From the NCBI GenBank assembly GCA_965287045.1, contig OZ336872.1, positions 121,706,001 to 121,770,000 of the forward strand: 64,000 bases of DNA, given 5' to 3'. Both the position numbers and the translations under genes were made by a program. A model generated the notes under the pieces. The model had not been told where the DNA came from. It searched no databases and saw only the letters and a program-made list of their open reading frames with translations. Shown here one piece after another: positions 796 through 51,257 of this stretch. The stretch is from Carcharhinus amblyrhynchos. Lineage: Eukaryota. Positions within the stretch are counted from its first letter, which is position 1; each line of letters begins with the position of its first letter.

Positions 796-3618
796 GGGTA
801 CAGGTGAAGGCTGGGATGAAGACACTTTATCTGAATGCACGAAGCATTCGGAATAAAGTGAATGAGCTGGTGGCACAGATCAGCACAAATGGATATGATC
901 TGGTGGCCATTACAGAGACGTGGCTGCAAGGTGACAGGGACTGGGAGCTGAATGTCCAGGGGTATCAAGTGTTTAGGAAGGATAGGCAGAAGGGAAAGGG
1001 GGGGGTGTAGCTCTGCTGATTAAGGATGGCATTAGGGTGGTAGTAAGGGATGATATAGGAACCAAAGAGCAGAAAGTGGAATCGTTGTGGGTGGAGATTA
1101 GGAACAGCAAAGGGAGGAAGACGCTGGTGGGTGTCGTTTATAGGCCCCCAAATAATGATCTGGAGGTGGGGTGGGCTGTTAACGCGCAAATAAATGCGGC
1201 GTGCAGGAATGGGACGGCGATAATTATGGGGGATTTCAATCTACATATTGATTGGTCGACCCATGTTGGACGCGGTGGGCTTGAGGAGTTCTTGGAATGC
1301 TGCCGGGATAGTTTCCTCGAACAGTGTGTGTTGGAGCCGACGAGGGAGCGAGCTATCTTGGATCTGGTGTTATGTAATGAGGCGGGTAGAATTAGGGACC
1401 TTGTGGTGAAGGATCCTCTTGGGAAGAGTGATCATTGTATGGTGGAGTTTCTGATGCAGATGGAGGAGGAGAAAGTGGGTTCCCGGACATGTGTCCTTTG
1501 TTTGAACAGAGGGGAGTATGGTAGGATGAGAGAGGAATTGGCGAATATTGACTGGGGGAGTGCGTTGGAACGTAGGTCTGCTGAGGAACAGTGGAGGATC
1601 TTTAAGGACATCTTTCTTGGTGCTCAGCAGAAATTTATTCCGATGGTTAAAAAGGATCGTAGGAGGAGAGATAATCATCCGTGGATAACGAAGGAGGTAA
1701 AGGAAAGTGTTAAATTAAAAGCGGATGCGTTTAGAGTAGCTAAGAGTAGTGGGCGAGAAGAAGATTGGGAGAGGTTTAAATGTCAACAAAGAATGACAAA
1801 GAAGTTGATAAAGAAGGGTAGGATAAACTATTAAGCTGGGCTAGTGCTTAATATAAAAAAGGATAGCAAGAGTTTTTATAAATATATAAAAAGGAAGAGG
1901 CTGGCTAGGGTGAATGTTGGACCCTTAGAGGATGAGAGGGGGGACTTAGTGGTAGGGGATGGGGAAATGGCTGAGGCCTTGAATAACTTTTTTGTTTCGG
2001 TCTTCACGGAGGAGGACGTGAATAATTTGCCGGGTGTTAGCGATGGAAAGATGGTAGGACTGGAGGGCCTGAATGACGTTATTGTTACTAGAGAGGCGGT
2101 GCTCGACAGACTGGAGGGACTGATTGTGGACAAGTCCCCAGGACCGGATGGAATGCATCCGAGGGTTCTGAAAGAAATGGCGGAGGTGATAGTGGATGCC
2201 TTGGTGATTATTTTGCAAACGTCGCTGGATTCCGGGGAAGTGCCGGATGATTGGAAAACGGCTAATGTTACTTCGTTGTCTAAGAAGGGTGGCAGGCAAA
2301 AGGCGGGGAATTATAGGCCGGTTAGTTTAACGTCTGTTGTAGGAAAAATGTTAGAATCCGTGATCAAGGAGGAAATAGCGAGGCATCTTGAGGAGAATTG
2401 TTTGGTAGAGCAGACGCAGCCCGGTTTCGTTAAGGGGAAGTCGTGTCTGACGAATTTATTGGAGTTCTATGAGGATGTGTCTAGGGCGGTGGATAGAGAG
2501 CCAGTAGATGTGGTATTTCTTGATTTTCAGAAGGCGTTTGACAAGGTGCCTCACAAGAGGTTATTACAGAAGGTCAGGGGGCATGGAGTTGGGGGTAGGA
2601 TGTTAGCGTGGATAGAGGATTGGCTGTCAAATAGGAGGCAGAGAGTGGGGGTTAATGGGTGCTATTCAGATTGGCGGTTGGTGACTAGTGGAGTGCCCCA
2701 GGGGTCGGTGCTGGGGCCTCAGCTATTTACCATTTATATAGATGATCAGGAGGAGGGAACCAAGTGTATGGTGTTAAAATTTGCTGATGACACCAAGATT
2801 GGTGCAACGGCAAATTGTGCGGAGGGTGTGGAGAGTCTGCAGAAGGATCTAGATAGGCTGGGCGAATGGGCCAGGAACTGGCAAATGGAATTTAATGTTG
2901 GCAAATGTGAGGTTGTCCACTTTGGTAGGAATAATGGTAGGAAGGACTATTACTTACGTGGCGAAAAACTGCAGCATGCGACGGTGTAGAGGGACCTCGG
3001 GGTCCTTGTGCATGAGTCGCAAAAACCCAGCCTGCAGGTGCAGCAGGTGGTCAGGAAGGCGAATGGGATGCAGGCCTTCATAGCGAGGGGGATTGAATAT
3101 AAAAGTAGGGAGGTCTTGCTGCAGCTGTATAGGGCATTGGTGAGGCTGCAGCTGGAGTACTGTGTGCAGTTTTGGTCGTCGCACTTATGCAAGGATATTT
3201 TGGCCTTGGAGGGAGTGCAGAGGAGGTTTACTAGGCTGATTCCGGAGTTGAGGGGGTTGAACTACGAGGAGAGGCTGAATAAACTAGGCTTGTACACGTT
3301 AGAATTTAGAAGAATGAGGGGAGACCTCATTGAGACATATAGGATGTTGAATGGGATGGATAGGATAGAGGTGGAGAGGCTCTTCCCGCTCAGAAAGGAC
3401 AGTAGGACTAGAGGGCACAGCCTCAAGATAAGGGGGGGCGGTTTGGAACGGAGTTGAGGAGGAACTTCTTCACTCAAAGGGTGGTGAATCTCTGGAATTC
3501 TCTGTCCATTGAAGTGGTGGAGGCTGCCTCGTTCAATATTTTTCAGACGCAGGTTGATAGGTTTTTGATAGGCAAGGGGATTAAGGGTTATGGGGAGAGG
3601 GCGGGAATGTGGAACTGA
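796..3618 (+). pseudogene. CR1 ORF2 (APE endonuclease + reverse transcriptase), disrupted
   Basis: YLNARS, ITETW, YRPP, GDFN, SDH; KSPGPDG, NYRPVSL, DFQKAFD, GVPQGSVLGP, FADD. Broken near 1008, by stops at 1832-1834 and 2987-2989, and by a frameshift near 3445. Confidence 0.95.
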
Positions 3619-8164: not shown

Positions 8165-8700
8165 CTCGACAGTCACCAGGCAGGAGAGCTCCCTTCCTGT
8201 CGGGGAACACTTCAGCAAGCAAGGACATTCAGCCTCTGATCTTCAGGTAAGCATTCTCCAAGGTGGCCTTCAAGACACACGACAACGCAGAATCGCCAAG
8301 CGAAAATTGATAGCCAAGTTCTGCACACGAGGACGGCCTCAACCGGGATCATGTCACGCTATCTGTAACCACCACAACTTGCCTGGGCTTGTAAAATCTC
8401 ACTAACTGTCCTGGCTTGAGACAATTCACATCTCTTTAACCTGTGCTTAACCCTCTCTCCACTCACATTGTCTGACCTGTAAAGATTTGATTACCTATTA
8501 AGACTCACATTCCAACCATTATCTTATAATTGAGTTTGTGTCTATATATGCCCTGCTTGTGAACCAAATCCTGCACTCACCTGATGAAGGAGCAGTGTTC
8601 TGAAAGCTCATATTACCAAATAAACCTGTTGGATTTTGACCTGGCGCTGAGAGACTCCTTACTGTTCCTACCCCAGTCCAACGCCAACAACTCCACATCA
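8165..8700 (+). mobile_element. Penelope-like element 3' fragment (family A): GIY-YIG C-terminus plus terminal repeat
   Basis: LPVGEHFSKQGHSASDLQVSILQGG..RRIA..LIAKF..GLNRD, then a terminus ending CTCCACATCA shared with 9158, 19123 and 48438. Confidence 0.85.
8576..8615 (+). ncRNA. Degenerate minimal hammerhead ribozyme in the PLE terminal repeat
   Basis: TCAC-CTGATGA-A-GGAGC-AGT-GTTCT-GAAA-GC-TC; helix I 3' strand is mutated. Confidence 0.6.
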
Positions 8701-8757
8701 TAGACTATGACAGGACTGCGACCATGACACTTGAAAGATGAACTGATCAGAGACAAA

Positions 8758-8879: not shown

Positions 8880-9247
8880 AATGTAGTTTTATGACTGTTG
8901 GATATCTTGTCTGACCCCTTGCACTCGTGATGATCTAACTTTAGCAAAGGCAATCTAGCTGAGCAGATACGCTGAGGTCAGCAAACAGGACTAATCTGTG
9001 GTTCAAAGTGACAGGAGGAGCCCCATCTTAAAAAGTAGCTGACTCATTCACATGTCAAATATAAAAAAACTGTAACAAAAATGCAGGGGATACAGGAAGA
9101 GCATCCATCAATAACCCAAGCTGATTATAACTGGTGTGGCAGGGAAATAGTAGTCATGATGTGGGTATGTCGGCGTTGGACTGGCGTAAACACAGTAAAA
9201 AGTCTGACAACACCAGGTTTTAGTCCAACCGATTTATTTGATAATAT

Positions 9248-9287
9248 ACTCACAAGCTTTCAGGGTTAGCCCCTTCGTCAGGTGAAT
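9248..9287 (-). ncRNA. Minimal type I hammerhead ribozyme (mirror copy)
   Basis: Reverse complement of the 9366-9405 motif with one C>T change giving a G-U pair in helix II. Confidence 0.75.
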
Positions 9288-9365
9288 GGAGAGTTCTGGC
9301 CTCAGACAGAGCATATCTCTAAACTGTCTGTGCTTCATATGCTCTGTCTGAGGCCAGAACTCTCC

Positions 9366-9405
9366 ATTCACCTGACGAAGGGGCTAACCCCGAAAGCTTG
9401 TGAGT
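9366..9405 (+). ncRNA. Minimal type I hammerhead ribozyme with intact core
   Basis: TTCAC-CTGACGA-A-GGGG-CTAA-CCCC-GAAA-GC-TT-GTGAG: helix I, helix II and palindromic AGCT helix III. Confidence 0.8.
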
Positions 9406-9889
9406 ATATTATCAAATAAATAGGTTGGACTAAAACCTGGTGTTGTCAGACTTTTTACTGTGGCAGGGAAACACAGGATTGAAAACTGTCTCCAAAATAT
9501 TATTCTTGTGTGGAAAGATGGGACAAGCAAGCTCTATCAGTTTCCCTTAAGGCTGGTGGCCTCTGGACCTCATCTCCTCGCACAGTCCCTCTCCTGATTG
9601 CACCCTTTGCTCCCACCCAGGACTTCTCAACCTGAGACTCCTTCAGCTTACCTGGGCCACCAGTCCTGGCCTTGTCTTGGGTGTTCTCCAGCATTTCTTC
9701 CTCTGTTCACTCAGTACTGGGCTGGAGGGCTGCTGACCAATCTGAATGGTGGACTTACTGCTGACTGAGGAGCCACTCAATAACATGATAGGGCACTGTT
9801 GGCAGGGACGTGTTCCCTGCCAACTCTTTGAATGGTGGCAGGTGAGACCCCACCATCTGAAAAATTCAGGCAAAGTGATTCAGAGCCAG

Positions 9890-15589: not shown

Positions 15590-16976
15590 CTGAGTATTGC
15601 TGTTAAAAACAACATTTTGTCAAAAGTTTTTGTCATGTGCTCATCAGGACAAATTGCAAAATACCAATCCAAGGGAAACATCAAATTTATACCATATGAA
15701 AATATAGTGCTTATTGGTTGGCACTGGACTCTTATTAGTAGAAGAATTGTCATGGAGAATGCACCAGTTGATGGCGACTGACATTTAACTGCCAAGCATA
15801 GTTTGAAATTTAAATCAGACAGCTTGTCTTTGATTGCTTCATTCTTTGGCAATACTGTGACCAAAGAACAGTTTGTTTTAATGGGCTTCATCCTATGCTC
15901 AAATTCATCTTTGAAATGGAGCAGTCAAATTTCCCTTGCCGTACTGGTTAAGAAATATGACGGGGGTTCTCTACCACAATTTATTGTGAGCTCGTCTTCA
16001 CAAATCAAAACCGCATAGGGATTTTTGCAACTTTGTAAATGGGCCTGAGTAATTTGCACACAATGCAAGCTTGATGCTAAAGTAGGATGCAAAAACACCC
16101 TGTGGGATAATGGCCACCACGATTAGATCAGTTTGCATTGTAGACTATGCAAATTCATTACCAGGTCTAAGGCTGTCACTTTTGACCGAGAGATGCCAAG
16201 TTTACCATGGATTACGGACGAGTACGGATGGCAACCTTGCTCAAAAAGTTGAGCAACAAGAGAAGCCAGCTGTTTCACGCCATGACTATGCGGTAGCAAC
16301 ACAGTGCTGTTCACCATTAACAGGAAGCTGCTGCAAAGCCAAAAAAGATGGTGTTCTGCCTATTATACAAAATGAATTTTAGAACCAATGTGATGCCACA
16401 AAGACTAGTGAATCATATCAAACAGCAGGTCCCTTCTACTGTTCGCAGTTGGCAAGGTACAGATCATACCCAACCAGCCCTGCCTGCAAACCTCAAAATG
16501 CAGTGTCCAACATTAGATGCGATTCTGCAATTGGACAACATTTGCTAAATAATCCTCAGTGTCTTAAGAATTATGCTGACAACCAATTTAAGATTGTCAG
16601 TCGGGCTTGCAGTGTGGCGCATTTGTATTTCTTTTGGAAACTATATATATTAAATACACAGTGCGCTATTTGCAGTTGGAAACACCATGCACACACACCG
16701 CACCTATTTCAGTTAGCTGGTTCATTCCTCAGGGCAATGTCTCAACTAATCAGAGTCAAACTGCCTGGTTTAAATTCAAACAATGCTTAGTAGTTAACAG
16801 TCAGTCACCGTCAACTGGTGCATTCCCCATAGCAACACCTCTACCAGAGTCCACCTGCCAACCAATCAGCATTCTCTTCTCACAGAATACAAGTTTGTTG
16901 TTTTCCCACATTGTTATTCTTGCAATTTGTCCTGATGGGTCGAAAAGGTCTGACAAAATACCTCAGTTTCCAGCAA
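15590..16976 (+). mobile_element. 5'-truncated Penelope-like element (family B) with inverted terminal repeats
   Basis: LHPMLKFIFEMEQ (RT thumb) at ~15885, HIKQQVP and SAIGQHLLNNPQCLKNYADNQFKIV (GIY-YIG C-terminus). 15610-15835 is an inverted copy of 16747-16960. Confidence 0.8.
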
Positions 16977-16997
16977 GAATTTATTATATCTCAAACA

Positions 16998-18436
16998 TTA
17001 TTTAAGAAGGGTGCCAGGCAAAAGGCAGGGAATTATAGGCTGGTTAGTTTAACGTCTGTTGTAGGTAAAATGTTAGAATACGTCATCAAGGAGGAAATAG
17101 CGAGGCATCTCGAGGGGAATTGCTTGATAGAGCAGACGCAGCACGGTTTTGTTAAGGGGAAGTCGTGTCTGACAAATTTATTGGCGTTCTATGAGGATGT
17201 GTCTAGGGCGGTGGATAGAGGAGAGCCGGTGGATGTGGTCTTTCTTGATTTTCAGAAGGCGTTTGACAAGGTACCTCACAAGAGGTTATTGCAGAAGGTA
17301 AGGGGGCATGGAGTTGGAGGTAGGGTGTTAGCGTGGATAGAGGATTGGTTGTCAAATAGGAGGCAGAGAGTGGGGGTTAATGGGTGCTATTCGGATTGGC
17401 AGTTGGTGACTAGTGGAGTGCCTCAGGGGTCGGTGCTGGGGCCTCAGCTATTTACCATTTATACAGATGATCTGGAGGAGGGAACCGAGCGTATGGTGTT
17501 GAAATTTGCTGATGACACCAAGATTGGTGGAACGGCAAATTGCGCGGAGGGTGTGGAGAGTCTGCAGAAAGATCTAGATAGGCTGGGCGAATGGGCCAGG
17601 AACTGGCAAATGGAATTTAATGTTGGCAAGTGCGAGGTGGTCCACTTTGGTAGGAATAATGGTAGGAAGGACTATTACTTACGTGGCGAAAAACTGCAGC
17701 AGGCGATGGTGCAGAAGGACCTCGGGGTCCTTGTGCATGAGTCGCAAAAACCCAGCCTGCAGGTGCAGCAGGTGGTCAGGAAGGCTAATGGGATGCTGGC
17801 CTTCATAGCGAGTGGGATTGAATATAAAAGTAGGGAGGTTTTGCTGCAGCTGTATAGGGCATTGGTGAGGCCGCAGCTGGAGTACTATGTGCAGTTTTGG
17901 TCGCCGCACTTACGCAAGGATATTTTGGCCTTGGAGGGAGTGCAGAGGAGGTTTACTAGGCTGATTCCGGAGTTGAGGCGGTTGAGCTATGAGGAGAGAC
18001 TGAATAAACTAGGCTTGTACTCGTTAGAGTTTAGAAGAATGAGGGGAGATCTCATTGAGATGTATAAGATGATGAATGGGATGGATAGGATAGAGGTGGA
18101 GAGACTCTTCCCGCTCAAAAAAGACAGTAGGACTAGGGGGCACAGCCTCAAGATAAAGGGGGGGCGGTTTAGAACGGAGTTGAGGAGGAACTTCTTCACT
18201 CAAAGGGTGGTGAATCTCTGGAATTCTCTGCCCGTTGAAGTGGTGGAGGCTGCCTCGCTAAATATTTTTAAGACCCGGGTTGATGGGTTTTTGGTAAGCG
18301 AGGGGATTAAGGGTTATGGGGAGAGGGCGGGAAAGTGGAACTGAGCCACGACAGATCAGCCATGATCTTATTGAATGGCGGGGCAGGCTGGAAGGGCTAG
18401 ATGGCCTACTCCTGCTCCTAGTTCTTATGTTCTTAT
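16998..18436 (+). mobile_element. Young 5'-truncated CR1 (HER1-like), RT through tail
   Basis: Open RT reading frame to the stop at 18344; highly similar to 2277-3706. Confidence 0.95.
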
Positions 18437-19122
18437 AAACTGGAGCTAACTTTTCGATGTCTGCCCTTATTCTGGTTGTTCTAGTCTCACTCAGTTTGCC
18501 ACATAAGGGATACTCAAAGCCATATTTTTACAGAAGATATCTTTCCAATTAAGCTCATTTCGTACAGTAAATGTTCTTTAGCTTAGAGGATGGTGTACAG
18601 CAGCTACTTAATAAAACAGCTGCTATAATTAAGAATGCAAATTAGGATCTGACAACAGAATCTCATAGTATTCGCATCTTTGACACTCCTGGATTATATT
18701 CAGTCAGGAGCTCATTATTTTGTCAAACAACAATCCCAGCTCTACAAATAAATGCTATAATATAATTTTCCAATTCTGTAAATTGGTAATATGCACCCCA
18801 CACACTGCAACATGCAATTTCTCATGTCTCAATACTTCTAAACTTGTATGATCAAGAGGTCAGGATATAAAAAAAAAACCACCTTCTTAAATGGTGCCCC
18901 CCAGCCACTTGGCTTTTGGGGTAAATCACTTTCACATATGAGCTGTGAATTAATCATGTCGCATCCACAGATGTTGACCTATTTGTTTGTACGTGTTTAT
19001 CTTTGTGACATTACATCTAAAACTGGTGAATTTCAACCAAATAACCAAGAGAGTGAGAAATTGATTCAACTGCCACATCTCTATCATGTGGAGTCCGAAA
19101 ACAGAAACTTCTTTTGTGAATG

Positions 19123-19445
19123 ATATGGAGATGCCAGCGTTGAACTGGGGTGGGCACAGTAAGAAGTCTCACAATACCAGACTAAAGTCCAACGGGTTTA
19201 TTAGGAATCACAAGCTTTTGGAACGCCGCTCCTTCATCAGGTGATTCTTTTCTGCTCAGCGATTTTGTCGTGTGTCTTGAAGGCTGACTCGGAGAATGCT
19301 TACCCAAAGATCAGAGGCTGAAGGCCCTTGAGTGCTGAAGTGTTTCCTGACAGGAAGGGAACACTCCCGCCCACATGCATTGCTCGGAAAGCTCGTGATT
19401 CCAAATAAACCTGTTGGACTTTAACCTGGTGTTGTGAGATTTCCG
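19123..19445 (-). mobile_element. Internally deleted PLE (family A) with inverted partial end and 11-bp TSD
   Basis: Terminal repeat 19123-19244, GIY-YIG piece ~19250-19370, inverted end ~19380-19443; TTTTGTGAATG at 19112-19122 and 19446-19456. Confidence 0.85.
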
Positions 19446-43829: not shown

Positions 43830-44980
43830 CAGGCATGTCCACACAAAAATGTAGGATAGAAACGGCAGGATTCAGGAACCAGGGATGACAAGCGAAATCG
43901 TAAGCTTAGTCAAAAGGAAAAAGGAAGCATATGATAGGTCTAAGCATCTAAAAACGGACAAAGCTCTTGAGGAATATAGTGAAAGTAAGAAGGAATTTAA
44001 ATGGAATTAGGGGGACTAAAAGAGGCCATGAAATAGCTTTATCAAACAGGGTCAAGGAGAATCCCAAGGCTTTTAATTCATTATATTAAATGCAAGAGTG
44101 TAGCAATAGAAAGAATAGGCCTGCTCAAGGACAATGGAAGGAAGTTATGCGTGGAGCCAGAGGAAGTGGGTGAGATCCTTAATGAGTACTTTGTGTTGGT
44201 ATTCACCAAGGAGAAGGACATGATGGACTTTGAGGTCAGGGATAGGTATGTGAGCACTCTAGAGAATGTCAATACATTGAAGGAGGAAGTGTTGAGTATC
44301 CTAAATTGTTTTAAGATAGAAAAGGTGACTAAGAAGACATATGGCATGCTTGCGTTCATCAGCCGGGGCACTGAGTACAAGAGTTGGGAAATCATGTTGC
44401 AGCTATATAAAACCTTGGTTAAGCCGCATTTGGAGTACTGCATGCAGTTTCTGGTCAGCACACTACCAGAAGGACATGGAAGCTTTGGAGAGAGTGCAAA
44501 GTAGATTCACCAGGATGTTGCTTGGTCACGAGGGCGTTGACTATGAGGAGAAGTTGAATATACTAGGATTGTTTTCACTGGAAAGATGGAGGATGAGGGG
44601 AGACCTGATAGAGGTCTACAAAATTATAAGAGGTATAGACAGCATGGATAGTCAGAGGCTTTTTCCCAGGGTGGAAGTGTCAATTACAAGGGGGTACAAA
44701 TAAAGGATGAGAGGGAGAAAGTTTAAGAGAAATGTGCGAAGCAAGATTTTCACTCAGAGAGTGGTGGGTGCCTGGAATGCACTGCCAGAGGAGGAGGTGG
44801 AAGCAGGCACATTAGCAACATTTAAGAGGCATCAGGATGGGCACATGAATAGGGAGGGAATAGAGGGATGTGGACTGAGTAAGAGCAGAAGGTTTTTTTT
44901 AGTTTAGTTAGAGTATTATGATTGGCATGGGCTTGGAGGGCCTTAGGGTCTGTTCCAGAGCTATACTTTTCTTTGTTCAT
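43830..44980 (+). mobile_element. CR1 fragment lacking the RT core
   Basis: EEVGEILNEYFVLVFTKE..KI joins directly to KVTKKTYGMLAFISRG. Confidence 0.85.
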
Positions 44981-48165: not shown

Positions 48166-48438
48166 GAAGTAAGAAGTCTCGCAACACCAGTTTATAGTCC
48201 GACAGGTTTATTTGGTAGCAAAAGCCACGAGCTGATCCTGGGCTTCTGCTGGATGCATTGCCAGCAACTACCAGCACTCACCAGGGGATGCTGACAGACA
48301 TGATGAACTGCTGCCTTCAGATCGGCTGGCAGCTTTCAGGGGGCGGGGATTTGCTACCAAATAAACCTGTTGGATTTTAACCTGGTGCTGTGAGATTTCT
48401 TACTGTGTTTACCCCAGTCCAACACCGGTATCTCCACA
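48166..48438 (+). mobile_element. PLE-end-bounded insertion carrying foreign sequence, 12-bp TSD
   Basis: TCCTGGGTAATG at 48154-48165 and 48439-48450; inverted PLE ends at ~48168-48233 and ~48350-48438. Confidence 0.85.
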
Positions 48439-49414
48439 TCCTGGGTAATGAGACAGGAATAATTGATGATCTTACAGTTAGGGACCCTCTCAGAAGAAGC
48501 GATTGCAATATGGTTGAATTTAAAGTACAGATGGAACGTAAGAAGGTAAAATCCAATACCGATGTCTTGTGCTTAAACAAAGGGATGAGGGAGGCATTGG
48601 CTAAGGTTGACTGGGAGTGAAAGCTTTATGATGGGACAATTGAGGAAAGTAGAGAACTTTCAAAGCGATCTTTCACAGTGCTCAGCAAAAGTATATACCA
48701 GTCATAAGGAAGGACTGTAGAAAAAGAGATAATCAGCCATGGTTATCTAAGGAAATAAAGGGGGGTATCAAATTGGACGAAAATGCTCACAAAGTGGCAA
48801 AGATTAGTGGGAAACTAGAAGATTGGGAAATCTTTAAAAGTCAACAGAAAGCCACGAAAAAAGCTATAAAGAAAAGTAAGATGGATTACGAGAATAAACT
48901 AGCTCAGAATATAAAAACAGATAGCAAAAGTTTTGACAAATATGTAAAACAAAAAAGAGTGGCTAAAGTAAACATTGGTCCTTTAGGGATGAGAAGGGGG
49001 ATGTAATAACTGAAAATGAGAAAATGCTGAGGCATTGAACAGGTATTTTGTGTTGGTCTTCACAGTGAAAGACACAAATAACATACCAAAAATTAATAAC
49101 AGGAAGGCTATGGGAGGTGAGAACCTAGAAATTATCATTATCATGAAAGAGGTAGTGTTGGGCAAGTTAATGGCGCTAAAAGTAGACAAGTCTACTGACC
49201 CTAATGGAATGCATCATAGGGTACTAAAAGAGATAGCGGAGGAAATAGCAAATGCACTGGTGGTAATTTACCAAGATTCGCTGGACTCTAGGGTGATTCC
49301 CGCAGATTGGAAAATGGCAAATGTGACGCCACTGTTTAAAAAAGGAGGTAGACAAAAGGCAGGTAACTAGAGGCCGGTTAGATAACTTCTGTCGTAGGGA
49401 AAATGCTTGAATCT

Positions 49415-49592: not shown

Positions 49593-51257
49593 TGAATCTA
49601 CCATCAAGGAAGAAATAGCGAGACATCTGGATATAAATTGTCCCATTTGTAAGGCGCAACATGGGTTTATGCATGGGTTTAGGTCATGTTTGACGAATTT
49701 GGTGGAATTCTTTGAGAATGTTACATGTGCAGTGGACAATGGGGAACCTGTGGATGTGGTGTATCTGGATTTCCAGAAGGCATTTGACAAGGTGCCGCAC
49801 AAAAGATTGCTGCTTTAGATAAAGGTGCACAGCGTTATGGGTAATGTACTGACATTGATAGGGGATTGGTTAACTAACAGACAGCAAAGAGTGGGGGTAA
49901 ATGGGTGTTTTTCTGGTTGGCGATCAGTGATTAGTGGTGTGCCTCAGGGATCAGTGTTGGGACCATAATTGTTTACGATTTACATAGATGATTTGTAGTT
50001 GGGGACCAAGTGTAGTGTGTCAAAATTCGCAGATAATACTAAGATGAGTAGCAGAGCAAAGTGTGCAGAGGACACTGAAAGTCTGCAAAGGGATATGATT
50101 AGTCTAAGTGAGAGGGCGAGGGTCTGGCAGATGGAGTACAATGTTGGTAAATATAAGGTCATCCATTTTGGTAGGAATAACAGAAAAATGGACTATTATT
50201 TAAATAGTGTTGCAGCATGCTCCTGTGCAGAGGGACCTGGGTGTCCTTGTGCAGGAATCACAAGGAGTTGGTTTGCAGGTGCAGCAGGTAATTAAGAAGC
50301 AAATGGAATTTTGTCCTTCATTGCTACAGGGATGGAGTTTACAAACAGCGAGGTTATGTTGCAGCTGTATAAGGTGCTGGTGAGGCCACACCTGGAGTAT
50401 TATGTACAGTTTTGGTCTCCTTACTTGAGAAAGGATATACCGGTACTGGAGGGGGTTCTGAGGAGATTCACTAGGTTGATTAGTTGAGAGAGTTGGCTTA
50501 TGAGGAGAGACTGAGTAGACTGGGGCTGTACTCATTGGAATTCAGAAGAATGAGAGGAGATCTTATAGAAACATATAAGATTATGAAGGGAATAAATAAG
50601 ATAGAAGTACAAAAGTTATTTCTACAGACGGGTGAAACTAGGATTAGGGGACATGGTCCCAAAATAAGGGGGAGCAGATTTAGGACTGAGTTGAGGAGGA
50701 ACTTCTTCACACAAACGGTAATGAATCTGTGGAATTCCCTGCCCAGTGAAGCAGTTGATGTTTTTAAGGCAAGGATAGATACATTTTTGAACAACAGAGG
50801 AATTAATGGTTATGGTGAACAGGCGGGTAAGTGGGGCTGAGTACACAAAAAGATCAGCCATGATCTTATTGAATGGCGGAACAGGCTCGAGGGGCCAGAT
50901 GGCCTACTCCTGCTCCTAGTTCTTATGTTCTTATGTTCCCTGGGTGCTCCGGTTTCCTCCCACACTCCAAAGGTGTGCAGTTTAGGTGTATTGACCCGAA
51001 CAGGCACCAGAGTGTGGCGACCAGGGGAATTTCACAGTAACTTCGTTGCAGTGTTAATGTAAGCCTTACTTGTGACTAATAAATAAGCTTTAAAAAAAAA
51101 CTTTGATGAGCTAGTACATGGGCCTACAATCAGTGAACAATTAAGAGGCCACCTCAAGGAATGTCATGGAAAATGCAGCATGTAACAGTTAACTGCCAAG
51201 CCCTTGTTCAAATTCAAACCAGACAGGTCAACCCTGAATGGTCAAAGCATTGCCAGT

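What the first reader, a model, noticed from the sequence alone, without database searches (positions are those of the whole stretch)
9135..9471. 126-bp-arm hairpin mini-element with an apparently intact hammerhead on each strand
Seen: arms 9191-9316 and 9337-9462 differ at only about two positions, have a 20-nt spacer and contain no coding sequence. One side has a ~33-nt extra tail (9158-9190). TGTGGCAGGGAAA is repeated at 9135-9147 and 9459-9471, with 10 nt of filler on the left. Helix II here (GGGG-CTAA-CCCC) differs from other copies (GGAGC-NGN-GYTCY) but still pairs. Known: minimal PLE hammerheads with a palindromic helix III act as dimers. Inference: this is a young non-autonomous derivative whose transcript would form long dsRNA, masking its own ribozyme and possibly yielding siRNA against the family.
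Basis: partly seen in the sequence, partly recalled or inferred. Interest (0 to 1): 0.7.

Follow-up and report, generated by a model that had tools for sequence, protein, structure and literature searches.

The report
One-off hairpin stub of Penelope retrotransposon
This DNA hairpin is a real, recent, one-off insertion of the end of a very common Penelope-type jumping gene, in a layout already known for this class; its thousands of sister copies suggest that such hairpins are likely built afresh each time from both cut ends of the target DNA.

Summary
The hairpin is real: 126-bp arms, 2 mismatches, 13-nt target duplication. The empty site exists in three other organisms. It is not a self-propagating mini-element. 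Its fold junction occurs once in the 2.9-Gb genome, against 10,052 tail ends and 27,869 pLTR ends of the family. The parent is a ~3.0-kb autonomous Penelope-like element with RT and C-terminal GIY-YIG. The 'filler' is the first 10 nt of its ORF, so the tail is 43 nt. The spacer is ordinary parent sequence. Of 77 sampled tail ends, 55 are head-to-head hairpins, no two with the same junction. The left hammerhead has G10.1-U11.1 in place of the conserved G-C. Helix II is normal for this family. Inverted pLTR + tail + TSD, and opposite-strand hammerhead pairs, are published. The sister copies favour priming from both cut target strands at two fixed RNA sites, closed by fold-back or microhomology (inferred, about 0.65). 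siRNA and cleavage are untested. The scan reported this pattern before in other genomes (8 notes listed).

The parts
9135..9147 (.). Target-site duplication, left copy (13 nt)
   Evidence: single copy at the empty site in runs X5 and X7
9148..9157 (-).
   Evidence: matches the ORF start in L062, L063 and L119; same end in L005 and L015
9148..9190 (-). PLE 'tail', 43 nt, on one arm only
   Evidence: family range 31-43 nt after removing TSD overlap
9191..9316 (-). Arm B: 5'-truncated pLTR copy, 126 nt, continuous with the tail
9248..9287 (-). Minimal type I hammerhead motif with G10.1-U11.1 wobble (C>T at a CpG, position 9262); likely weakened
   Evidence: G-C at this pair in 74 of 78 family arms; conservation of G10.1-C11.1 per PMC4209133
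9315..9316 (.). 2-nt microhomology at the internal head-to-head junction; junction unique in the genome
9315..9462 (+). Arm A: tail-less 5'-truncated pLTR copy, 148 nt; its first part (9317-9336) is the unpaired 'spacer'
9366..9405 (+). Minimal type I hammerhead motif, core intact; predicted cleavage after 9399; palindromic helix III stub, so a partner copy would be needed
   Evidence: PMC4209133
9459..9471 (.). Target-site duplication, right copy; its first 4 nt also match the end of arm A (target-element microhomology)

Best explanation
This is a dead, 5'-truncated, head-to-head insertion of an autonomous endonuclease-bearing Penelope-like retrotransposon, likely built at this site by priming reverse transcription from both cut target strands. 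Shown: parent, tail, target duplication, empty site, unique junction. Inferred steps: the GIY-YIG nuclease makes a staggered cut of about 12-13 nt. One 3' end primes at the tail site just inside the ORF start, giving arm B. The other primes about 35-45 nt upstream at the pLTR end, giving tail-less arm A, here with 4 nt of target-template pairing. Both cDNAs stop early. The longer one (A here) pairs through 2 nt with itself or with B and is extended, leaving the surplus of A as the 20-nt loop. The hammerheads ride along as part of the pLTR. If read through, they would be locked in the duplex. Confidence in the identity is about 0.95; the figure below is for the two-end mechanism.
For: Identity: parent unit about 3.02 kb with RT (Pfam RVT_1 E 2.4e-7) and GIY-YIG (at cutoff, E 1.3e-4, in the L063 copy); window element 92-95% identical to its pLTR. 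Junction 1 copy against 10,052 and 27,869 family ends. Mechanism: 55 of 77 sampled tail ends are hairpins with arms from about 45 to 3009 nt. The tail-less arm is longer in 27, the tailed arm in 13, and they are within 5 nt in 15; simple fold-back of the tailed cDNA cannot give the first class. Arm A starts within 12 nt of one fixed site in all 39 measurable copies. Target microhomology of 2 nt or more occurs at both outer ends: 14 of 38 and 22 of 45, against 16% simulated (p 0.0015 and 4e-7). In a second sample of 54 regions, 29 of 30 inverted pairs had one tail and none had two. Arms carry different common family alleles at 29 of 594 comparisons, against 1.7-5.2 expected from mutation, in 14 of 56 copies; the focal copy is one, at 9231/9422. 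In vitro, an anole PLE cuts and extends both strands and starts RT at two sites that delimit the tail (PMC11167929).
Against: Arm lengths are strongly tied: Spearman 0.82; within 20 nt in 34 of 55 against a shuffle mean of 7.9 and maximum of 19. Arms also usually share haplotype, including 15 rare variants found in both arms. Two independent cDNAs alone do not explain this, so a fold-back or coupled-RT step must be added. Some discordant sites lie in the indel-rich helix II and may be alignment effects. Ectopic gene conversion among the many copies could also give discordant arms. Microhomology at the A end also fits annealing of a finished cDNA. The samples come only from the first 27 Mb of contig C1 and from exact-match copies. 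The in vitro work is on a different (Poseidon) clade.
Confidence: 0.65

Rival explanations
1. Single-template self-priming or fold-back: one cDNA (or an antisense RNA, as proposed in PMC3846280) snaps back on itself and the finished hairpin is integrated; uneven loops come from later trimming at the centre.
For: Arm lengths tightly correlated, and several long copies are nearly perfect palindromes (619/617, 507/507). Arms agree at most polymorphic sites (only 29 of 594 comparisons discordant). Internal microhomology of 2 nt or more in 29 of 55.
Against: It does not by itself explain why arm A stops at one fixed site short of the tail, why the tail-less arm is the longer in 27 of 55, or why 14 of 56 copies carry different family alleles in their arms.
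Confidence: 0.27
2. One reading: a non-autonomous hairpin mini-element that is transcribed and re-inserted as a unit.
For: Other copies of similar size exist (40 of 40 scored places match nearly full length). One pair, L192/L193, shares a junction without microhomology and the same haplotype but has different flanks.
Against: The focal junction is unique. Two junctions picked because they recurred gave only 4 pattern matches each genome-wide (2 and 3 exact). The 3 exact copies of the second differ in helix II haplotype and in which arm has the tail, so they arose separately. Arm lengths form a continuum.
Confidence: 0.03
3. The hairpin arose after insertion, by two separate insertions, recombination or an assembly fold-back artefact.
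For: No contig spans the whole insert.
Against: One TSD encloses the whole unit; both flank junctions are present in run X2 and the empty site in X5 and X7; the arms differ at 2 sites; 45 of 55 sister hairpins have one TSD of 11 nt or more.
Confidence: 0.05

Closest known systems
Endonuclease-positive Penelope-like element insertions with inverted pLTR, one-sided tail and TSD (Pen2a_Av in PMC3846280; Fig. 2 legend of PMC8557442; D. virilis Penelope in PMC2377424; passages seen)
   Same: Inverted 5'-truncated copy at the 5' end, tail on one end only, tail covering the ORF start, TSD.
   Different: Both arms here are truncated to under 150 nt, so no ORF body remains; the tail is 43 nt against the published 30-40; the TSD mode is 12 nt in this family.
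Minimal hammerheads of metazoan PLEs (PMC4209133, parts 1-2 of 4 read)
   Same: Core motif, unpaired base before helix II, palindromic 15.2-16.2, variable helix II. That paper already reports pairs about 100-700 bp apart on opposite strands.
   Different: One copy here has G-U at 10.1-11.1. The two copies are antiparallel, so they cannot form the tandem dimer with each other (inferred).
Neptune/Nematis-type PLE clades (PMC8557442 passages)
   Same: C-terminal GIY-YIG and a CX4CxxC linker, which that paper says Penelope/Poseidon lack. Closest named proteins are from sharks, 82-90% identical among the top four hits.
   Different: No tree was built, so the clade is not fixed.
Anole Poseidon PAc in vitro (PMC11167929, parts 1-2 of 4 read)
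   Same: Two RT start sites bounding the tail; both target strands cut and extended.
   Different: Different clade; the parts read do not explain inverted insertions, and describe start sites without homology to the cut DNA, whereas 1-4 nt microhomology is enriched here.
LINE-1 twin priming (recalled, no call)
   Same: Both target ends prime cDNA and are joined by microhomology.
   Different: In LINE-1 the two pieces are different parts of one RNA; here both arms copy the same stretch.
Non-LTR retrozymes (bioRxiv 10.64898/2026.07.22.740005, part 1 of 5 read)
   Same: Non-coding, PLE-related, hammerhead-bearing.
   Different: Retrozymes are head-to-tail tandem units; this is a single head-to-head unit with no multiplied junction.

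Membership tests
EN+ Penelope-like element insertion | Parent ORF with RT and C-terminal GIY-YIG | tested here: met
   the copies examined (L062, L063) carry stops or frameshifts, and GIY-YIG scored at cutoff in 1 of 3 proteins scanned
EN+ Penelope-like element insertion | pLTR carrying a hammerhead motif | tested here: met
EN+ Penelope-like element insertion | Adjacent inverted 5'-truncated copy | tested here: met
   55 of 77 sampled tail ends
EN+ Penelope-like element insertion | Tail of about 30-40 nt on one end | tested here: met
   43 nt here, slightly long; 31-43 nt in 46 copies
EN+ Penelope-like element insertion | Target-site duplication | tested here: met
   13 nt, empty site seen
Neptune or Nematis clade | CX2-5CxxC linker between RT and EN | tested here: met
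   CX4CxxC in both parent copies; definition from PMC8557442
Neptune or Nematis clade | RT phylogenetic placement | not tested
   no reference set of named PLE RTs was fetched and no tree was built
Minimal type I hammerhead | Core boxes, helix I and II, cleavage triplet | tested here: met
   both arms; helix II pair 2 is A-U in 49 and G-C in 27 of 78 arms; no Rfam hit at gathering score
Minimal type I hammerhead | G10.1-C11.1 pair, + strand copy | tested here: met
Minimal type I hammerhead | G10.1-C11.1 pair, - strand copy | tested here: not met
   G-U
Minimal type I hammerhead | Self-cleavage as dimer | not testable with these tools
   needs an in vitro assay
Self-propagating non-autonomous hairpin element | Many dispersed copies with the same internal junction | tested here: not met
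   1 copy in the genome
Non-LTR retrozyme | Head-to-tail tandem units, each with a hammerhead | tested here: not met
   single inverted unit

The most novel reading that the evidence does not exclude
The inverted ends of Penelope-like elements, a long-unexplained hallmark, arise by twin target priming: two RT start sites, one on each cut strand, sometimes on two different RNA molecules, closed by fold-back. The thousands of young hairpins in this genome (about 7,000 by scaling 55/77 to 10,052 exact tail ends) would be a natural data set that tests this, and would also be a large latent source of family-specific double-stranded RNA.
Probability: 0.55. Interest if true: 0.5.

Novelty: new member of a known kind. 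Interest (0 to 1): 0.24.

Why it matters
The single copy matters little: it is one of thousands of dead stubs. The family matters modestly. Reviews of PLEs call the origin of their tandem and inverted ends undefined (PMC8557442). The end statistics here favour a specific model that joins those ends to the two RT start sites seen in vitro, and the model can be tested with existing protein assays. My search for Penelope with 'twin priming' gave 2 papers whose titles concern other subjects (listing only); 'Penelope, palindromic, non-autonomous, Neptune' gave 0. The library lacks most subscription papers, so this does not show the model is unpublished.

Tried and rejected
Rfam scan of the window at gathering score: 0 hits. 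Run search: no RNA holder listed, which is no evidence on expression; small-RNA and editing data could not be examined. ORF list of the window (37 ORFs of 110 aa or more): the long ones look like LINE-type RT fragments by motif (recalled, not scanned); no host gene was identified, but short exons would be missed, so read-through transcription is open. Propagating junctions: rejected. Pile-up of truncation points at the hammerhead cleavage site: a few ends lie at 62-66 nt (L116, L131, L179, L238, L245), judged by eye as no clear excess and confounded by the palindrome there; no formal test. Discordant arms are commoner when arm lengths differ by more than 50 nt (10 of 19 against 4 of 37, Fisher p 0.001), but longer arms hold more variable sites, so I do not rely on it. 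Rows dropped before counts: of 80 tail ends, 3 duplicates (L120, L121, L134); of 30 loci, 3 repeats of the same place, 10 of 55 hairpins without a TSD of 11 nt or more, and 7 more unmeasurable at the A end. L118 and L123 are counted among the 55 although their tailed arm runs on into a tandem copy. In one search, L202/L210 and probably L222/L224 are duplicates and were not removed; L222 and L224 are full-length-arm cases mis-scored by the short references. A paper on dimer cleavage of PLE hammerheads (recalled) was not held. No supplements were read.

Full report
Observation. The inverted repeat is as described: arms 9191-9316 and 9337-9462, 126 nt, 20 nt apart, with a 13-nt direct repeat at 9135-9147 and 9459-9471. 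The arms differ at two sites, 9262/9391 and 9231/9422. A transcript of 9148-9462 would fold into one duplex of -240.2 kcal/mol, z -28.4. Rfam finds nothing at gathering score, but a motif scan finds a minimal hammerhead on each arm.

The insertion is real and recent. Contigs from three other organisms lack it. In X5 and X7, position 9134 runs straight into 9459, leaving one copy of the 13-mer; X6 lacks it with a small further change. X2 holds both insertion junctions. Flanks in X5 and X7 are about 99% alike. The 324-bp gain is therefore insert plus duplication, and the 'filler' is inserted material.

The parent. The window lies in a 2.9-Gb genome. Exact pattern counts give 10,315 matches upstream of the pLTR end, 27,869 at the pLTR end and 10,052 at the tail. 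[quoted passage not shown] The best named relatives are shark proteins at 82-90% identity, so the host is likely a shark. By PMC8557442 (passages) the linker points to the Neptune or Nematis clade; I built no tree. The spacer is parent sequence upstream of the right arm. The true anatomy on the minus strand is: TSD, inverted tail-less arm A (148 nt), 2-nt overlap, arm B (126 nt), tail (43 nt), TSD.

Is it a mobile unit of its own? No. A 26-nt pattern across the fold junction matches once in the genome, at up to one mismatch. I took the first 80 of the 10,052 tail matches, all on contig C1, and removed 3 duplicates. Of 77, 55 have an adjacent inverted arm, with arm lengths from about 45 to 3009 nt. 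No two of these, with the focal copy, share the central 14-mer of the junction. Among the 26 other best DNA matches, a few junctions recurred. Two were counted genome-wide and gave 4 pattern matches each. The three exact copies of one differ in haplotype and in tail side, which shows separate origins; one pair (L192/L193) could be a rare re-copy. The focal copy is of ordinary age for the family (1.6% between arms, median 1.1%).

The hammerheads. In 78 sampled arms, 68 pass a strict core test. Helix II has 19 variants, with pair 2 switching between A-U (49) and G-C (27), and the focal form occurs 8 times. The + strand copy is intact. The - strand copy has U at 11.1, where 74 of 78 arms keep G-C and where PMC4209133 reports high conservation. 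Of 55 hairpins, 33 have the motif in both arms and 23 have both intact, so a double hammerhead is routine. PMC4209133 already notes opposite-strand pairs 100-700 bp apart and found no cleavage by a single minimal motif. PMC11167929 found cleavage dispensable for insertion in vitro. Masking in the duplex is predicted. Whether the locus is transcribed is unknown, so the siRNA idea is untested; small RNAs against PLEs are reported in a rotifer, mostly in the piRNA size class (PMC3846280 passages).

How it likely formed. Four features recur. First, the TSD mode is 12 nt (25 of 55). Second, arm A begins within 12 nt of one fixed site (39 of 39 measurable copies) and the tail ends 31-43 nt beyond it; in a second sample, part of it chosen without regard to the tail, none of 30 inverted pairs had two tails. 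Third, both outer ends show target microhomology above a simulated null (14 of 38 and 22 of 45 against 16%). Fourth, either arm may be the longer (27 against 13). These fit priming from both cut strands at two RNA sites, which is what the anole PLE protein does in vitro. Arms carrying different common alleles (29 of 594 comparisons, 1.7-5.2 expected) suggest two templates in a minority, perhaps including the focal copy at one site. Against a pure two-cDNA model, arm lengths are tightly tied (rho 0.82; 34 of 55 within 20 nt, shuffles 7.9) and haplotypes mostly agree. I therefore add a fold-back or coupled step that closes the gap. The published rival is self-priming on one template (PMC3846280). 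I give the combined model 0.65 and the rival 0.27.

Known and new. Inverted truncated copy, one-sided tail and TSD are standard for endonuclease-bearing PLEs. This copy is a new member of that kind. Eight earlier scan notes from other genomes describe the same kind of element, and six of them favour two-end priming. I had reached that reading before the look-up (note), and they are not independent support. None lay near this place. What remains of interest is the family-wide test of the integration mechanism, not this locus.

Verdict. Observation mostly right, with four corrections. The mini-element interpretation is not supported. Interest 0.24.

Noticed in passing
window 8571-8707 (+), 19120-19244 (-) with 19402-19442 (+), 48168-48217 (-) with 48355-48443 (+): Older, more diverged Penelope-like pLTR copies, 71-85% identical to the focal one; two of the three places are again head-to-head pairs.
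   Followed up: partly
window 986-3457, 16833-18344, 44037-44703, 48653-49370, 50484-50840: LINE-type endonuclease and RT fragments, probably CR1/L2-like by motif (recalled).
   Followed up: no
L112-L191, hammerhead helix II: Helix II is hypervariable (19 forms in 78 arms) while flanks are about 95% alike; pairing is mostly kept, which suggests selection on the ribozyme in source elements.
   Followed up: partly
L063:1465-4473 (same place as L135): The tail-less arm runs a full 3.0-kb unit and ends back in the tail region, with a short repeated insert at the junction; it would fit a unit-length or circular template.
   Followed up: no
L192 and L193 (G000:C2, about 627 kb apart): Two hairpins share a junction without microhomology and one haplotype but have different flanks; possibly a rare second-round copy of a hairpin.
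   Followed up: partly
L113/L120, L114/L121, L202/L210 (G000:C1 about 0.5-0.9 Mb and 1.2-1.55 Mb); L131/L134: Insertions with the same junction (and, where measured, the same TSD) at two places point to segmental duplications or haplotype duplication in the assembly.
   Followed up: no
L116, L131, L159, L179, L238, L245: Some ends lie within a few bases of the predicted hammerhead cleavage site (62-66 nt from the pLTR end); arm A of L159 starts there. Weak hint of in vivo cleavage, not tested statistically.
   Followed up: partly
window 9400-9405: The 3' strand of helix I reads like a consensus 5' splice site (recalled motif); PLEs are known to carry introns near their hammerheads.
   Followed up: no
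L113, L146, L159, L163 junctions: 11 of 55 internal junctions have extra bases; the longer ones look like short repeats of nearby element sequence, as from repeated slip-and-extend cycles.
   Followed up: no
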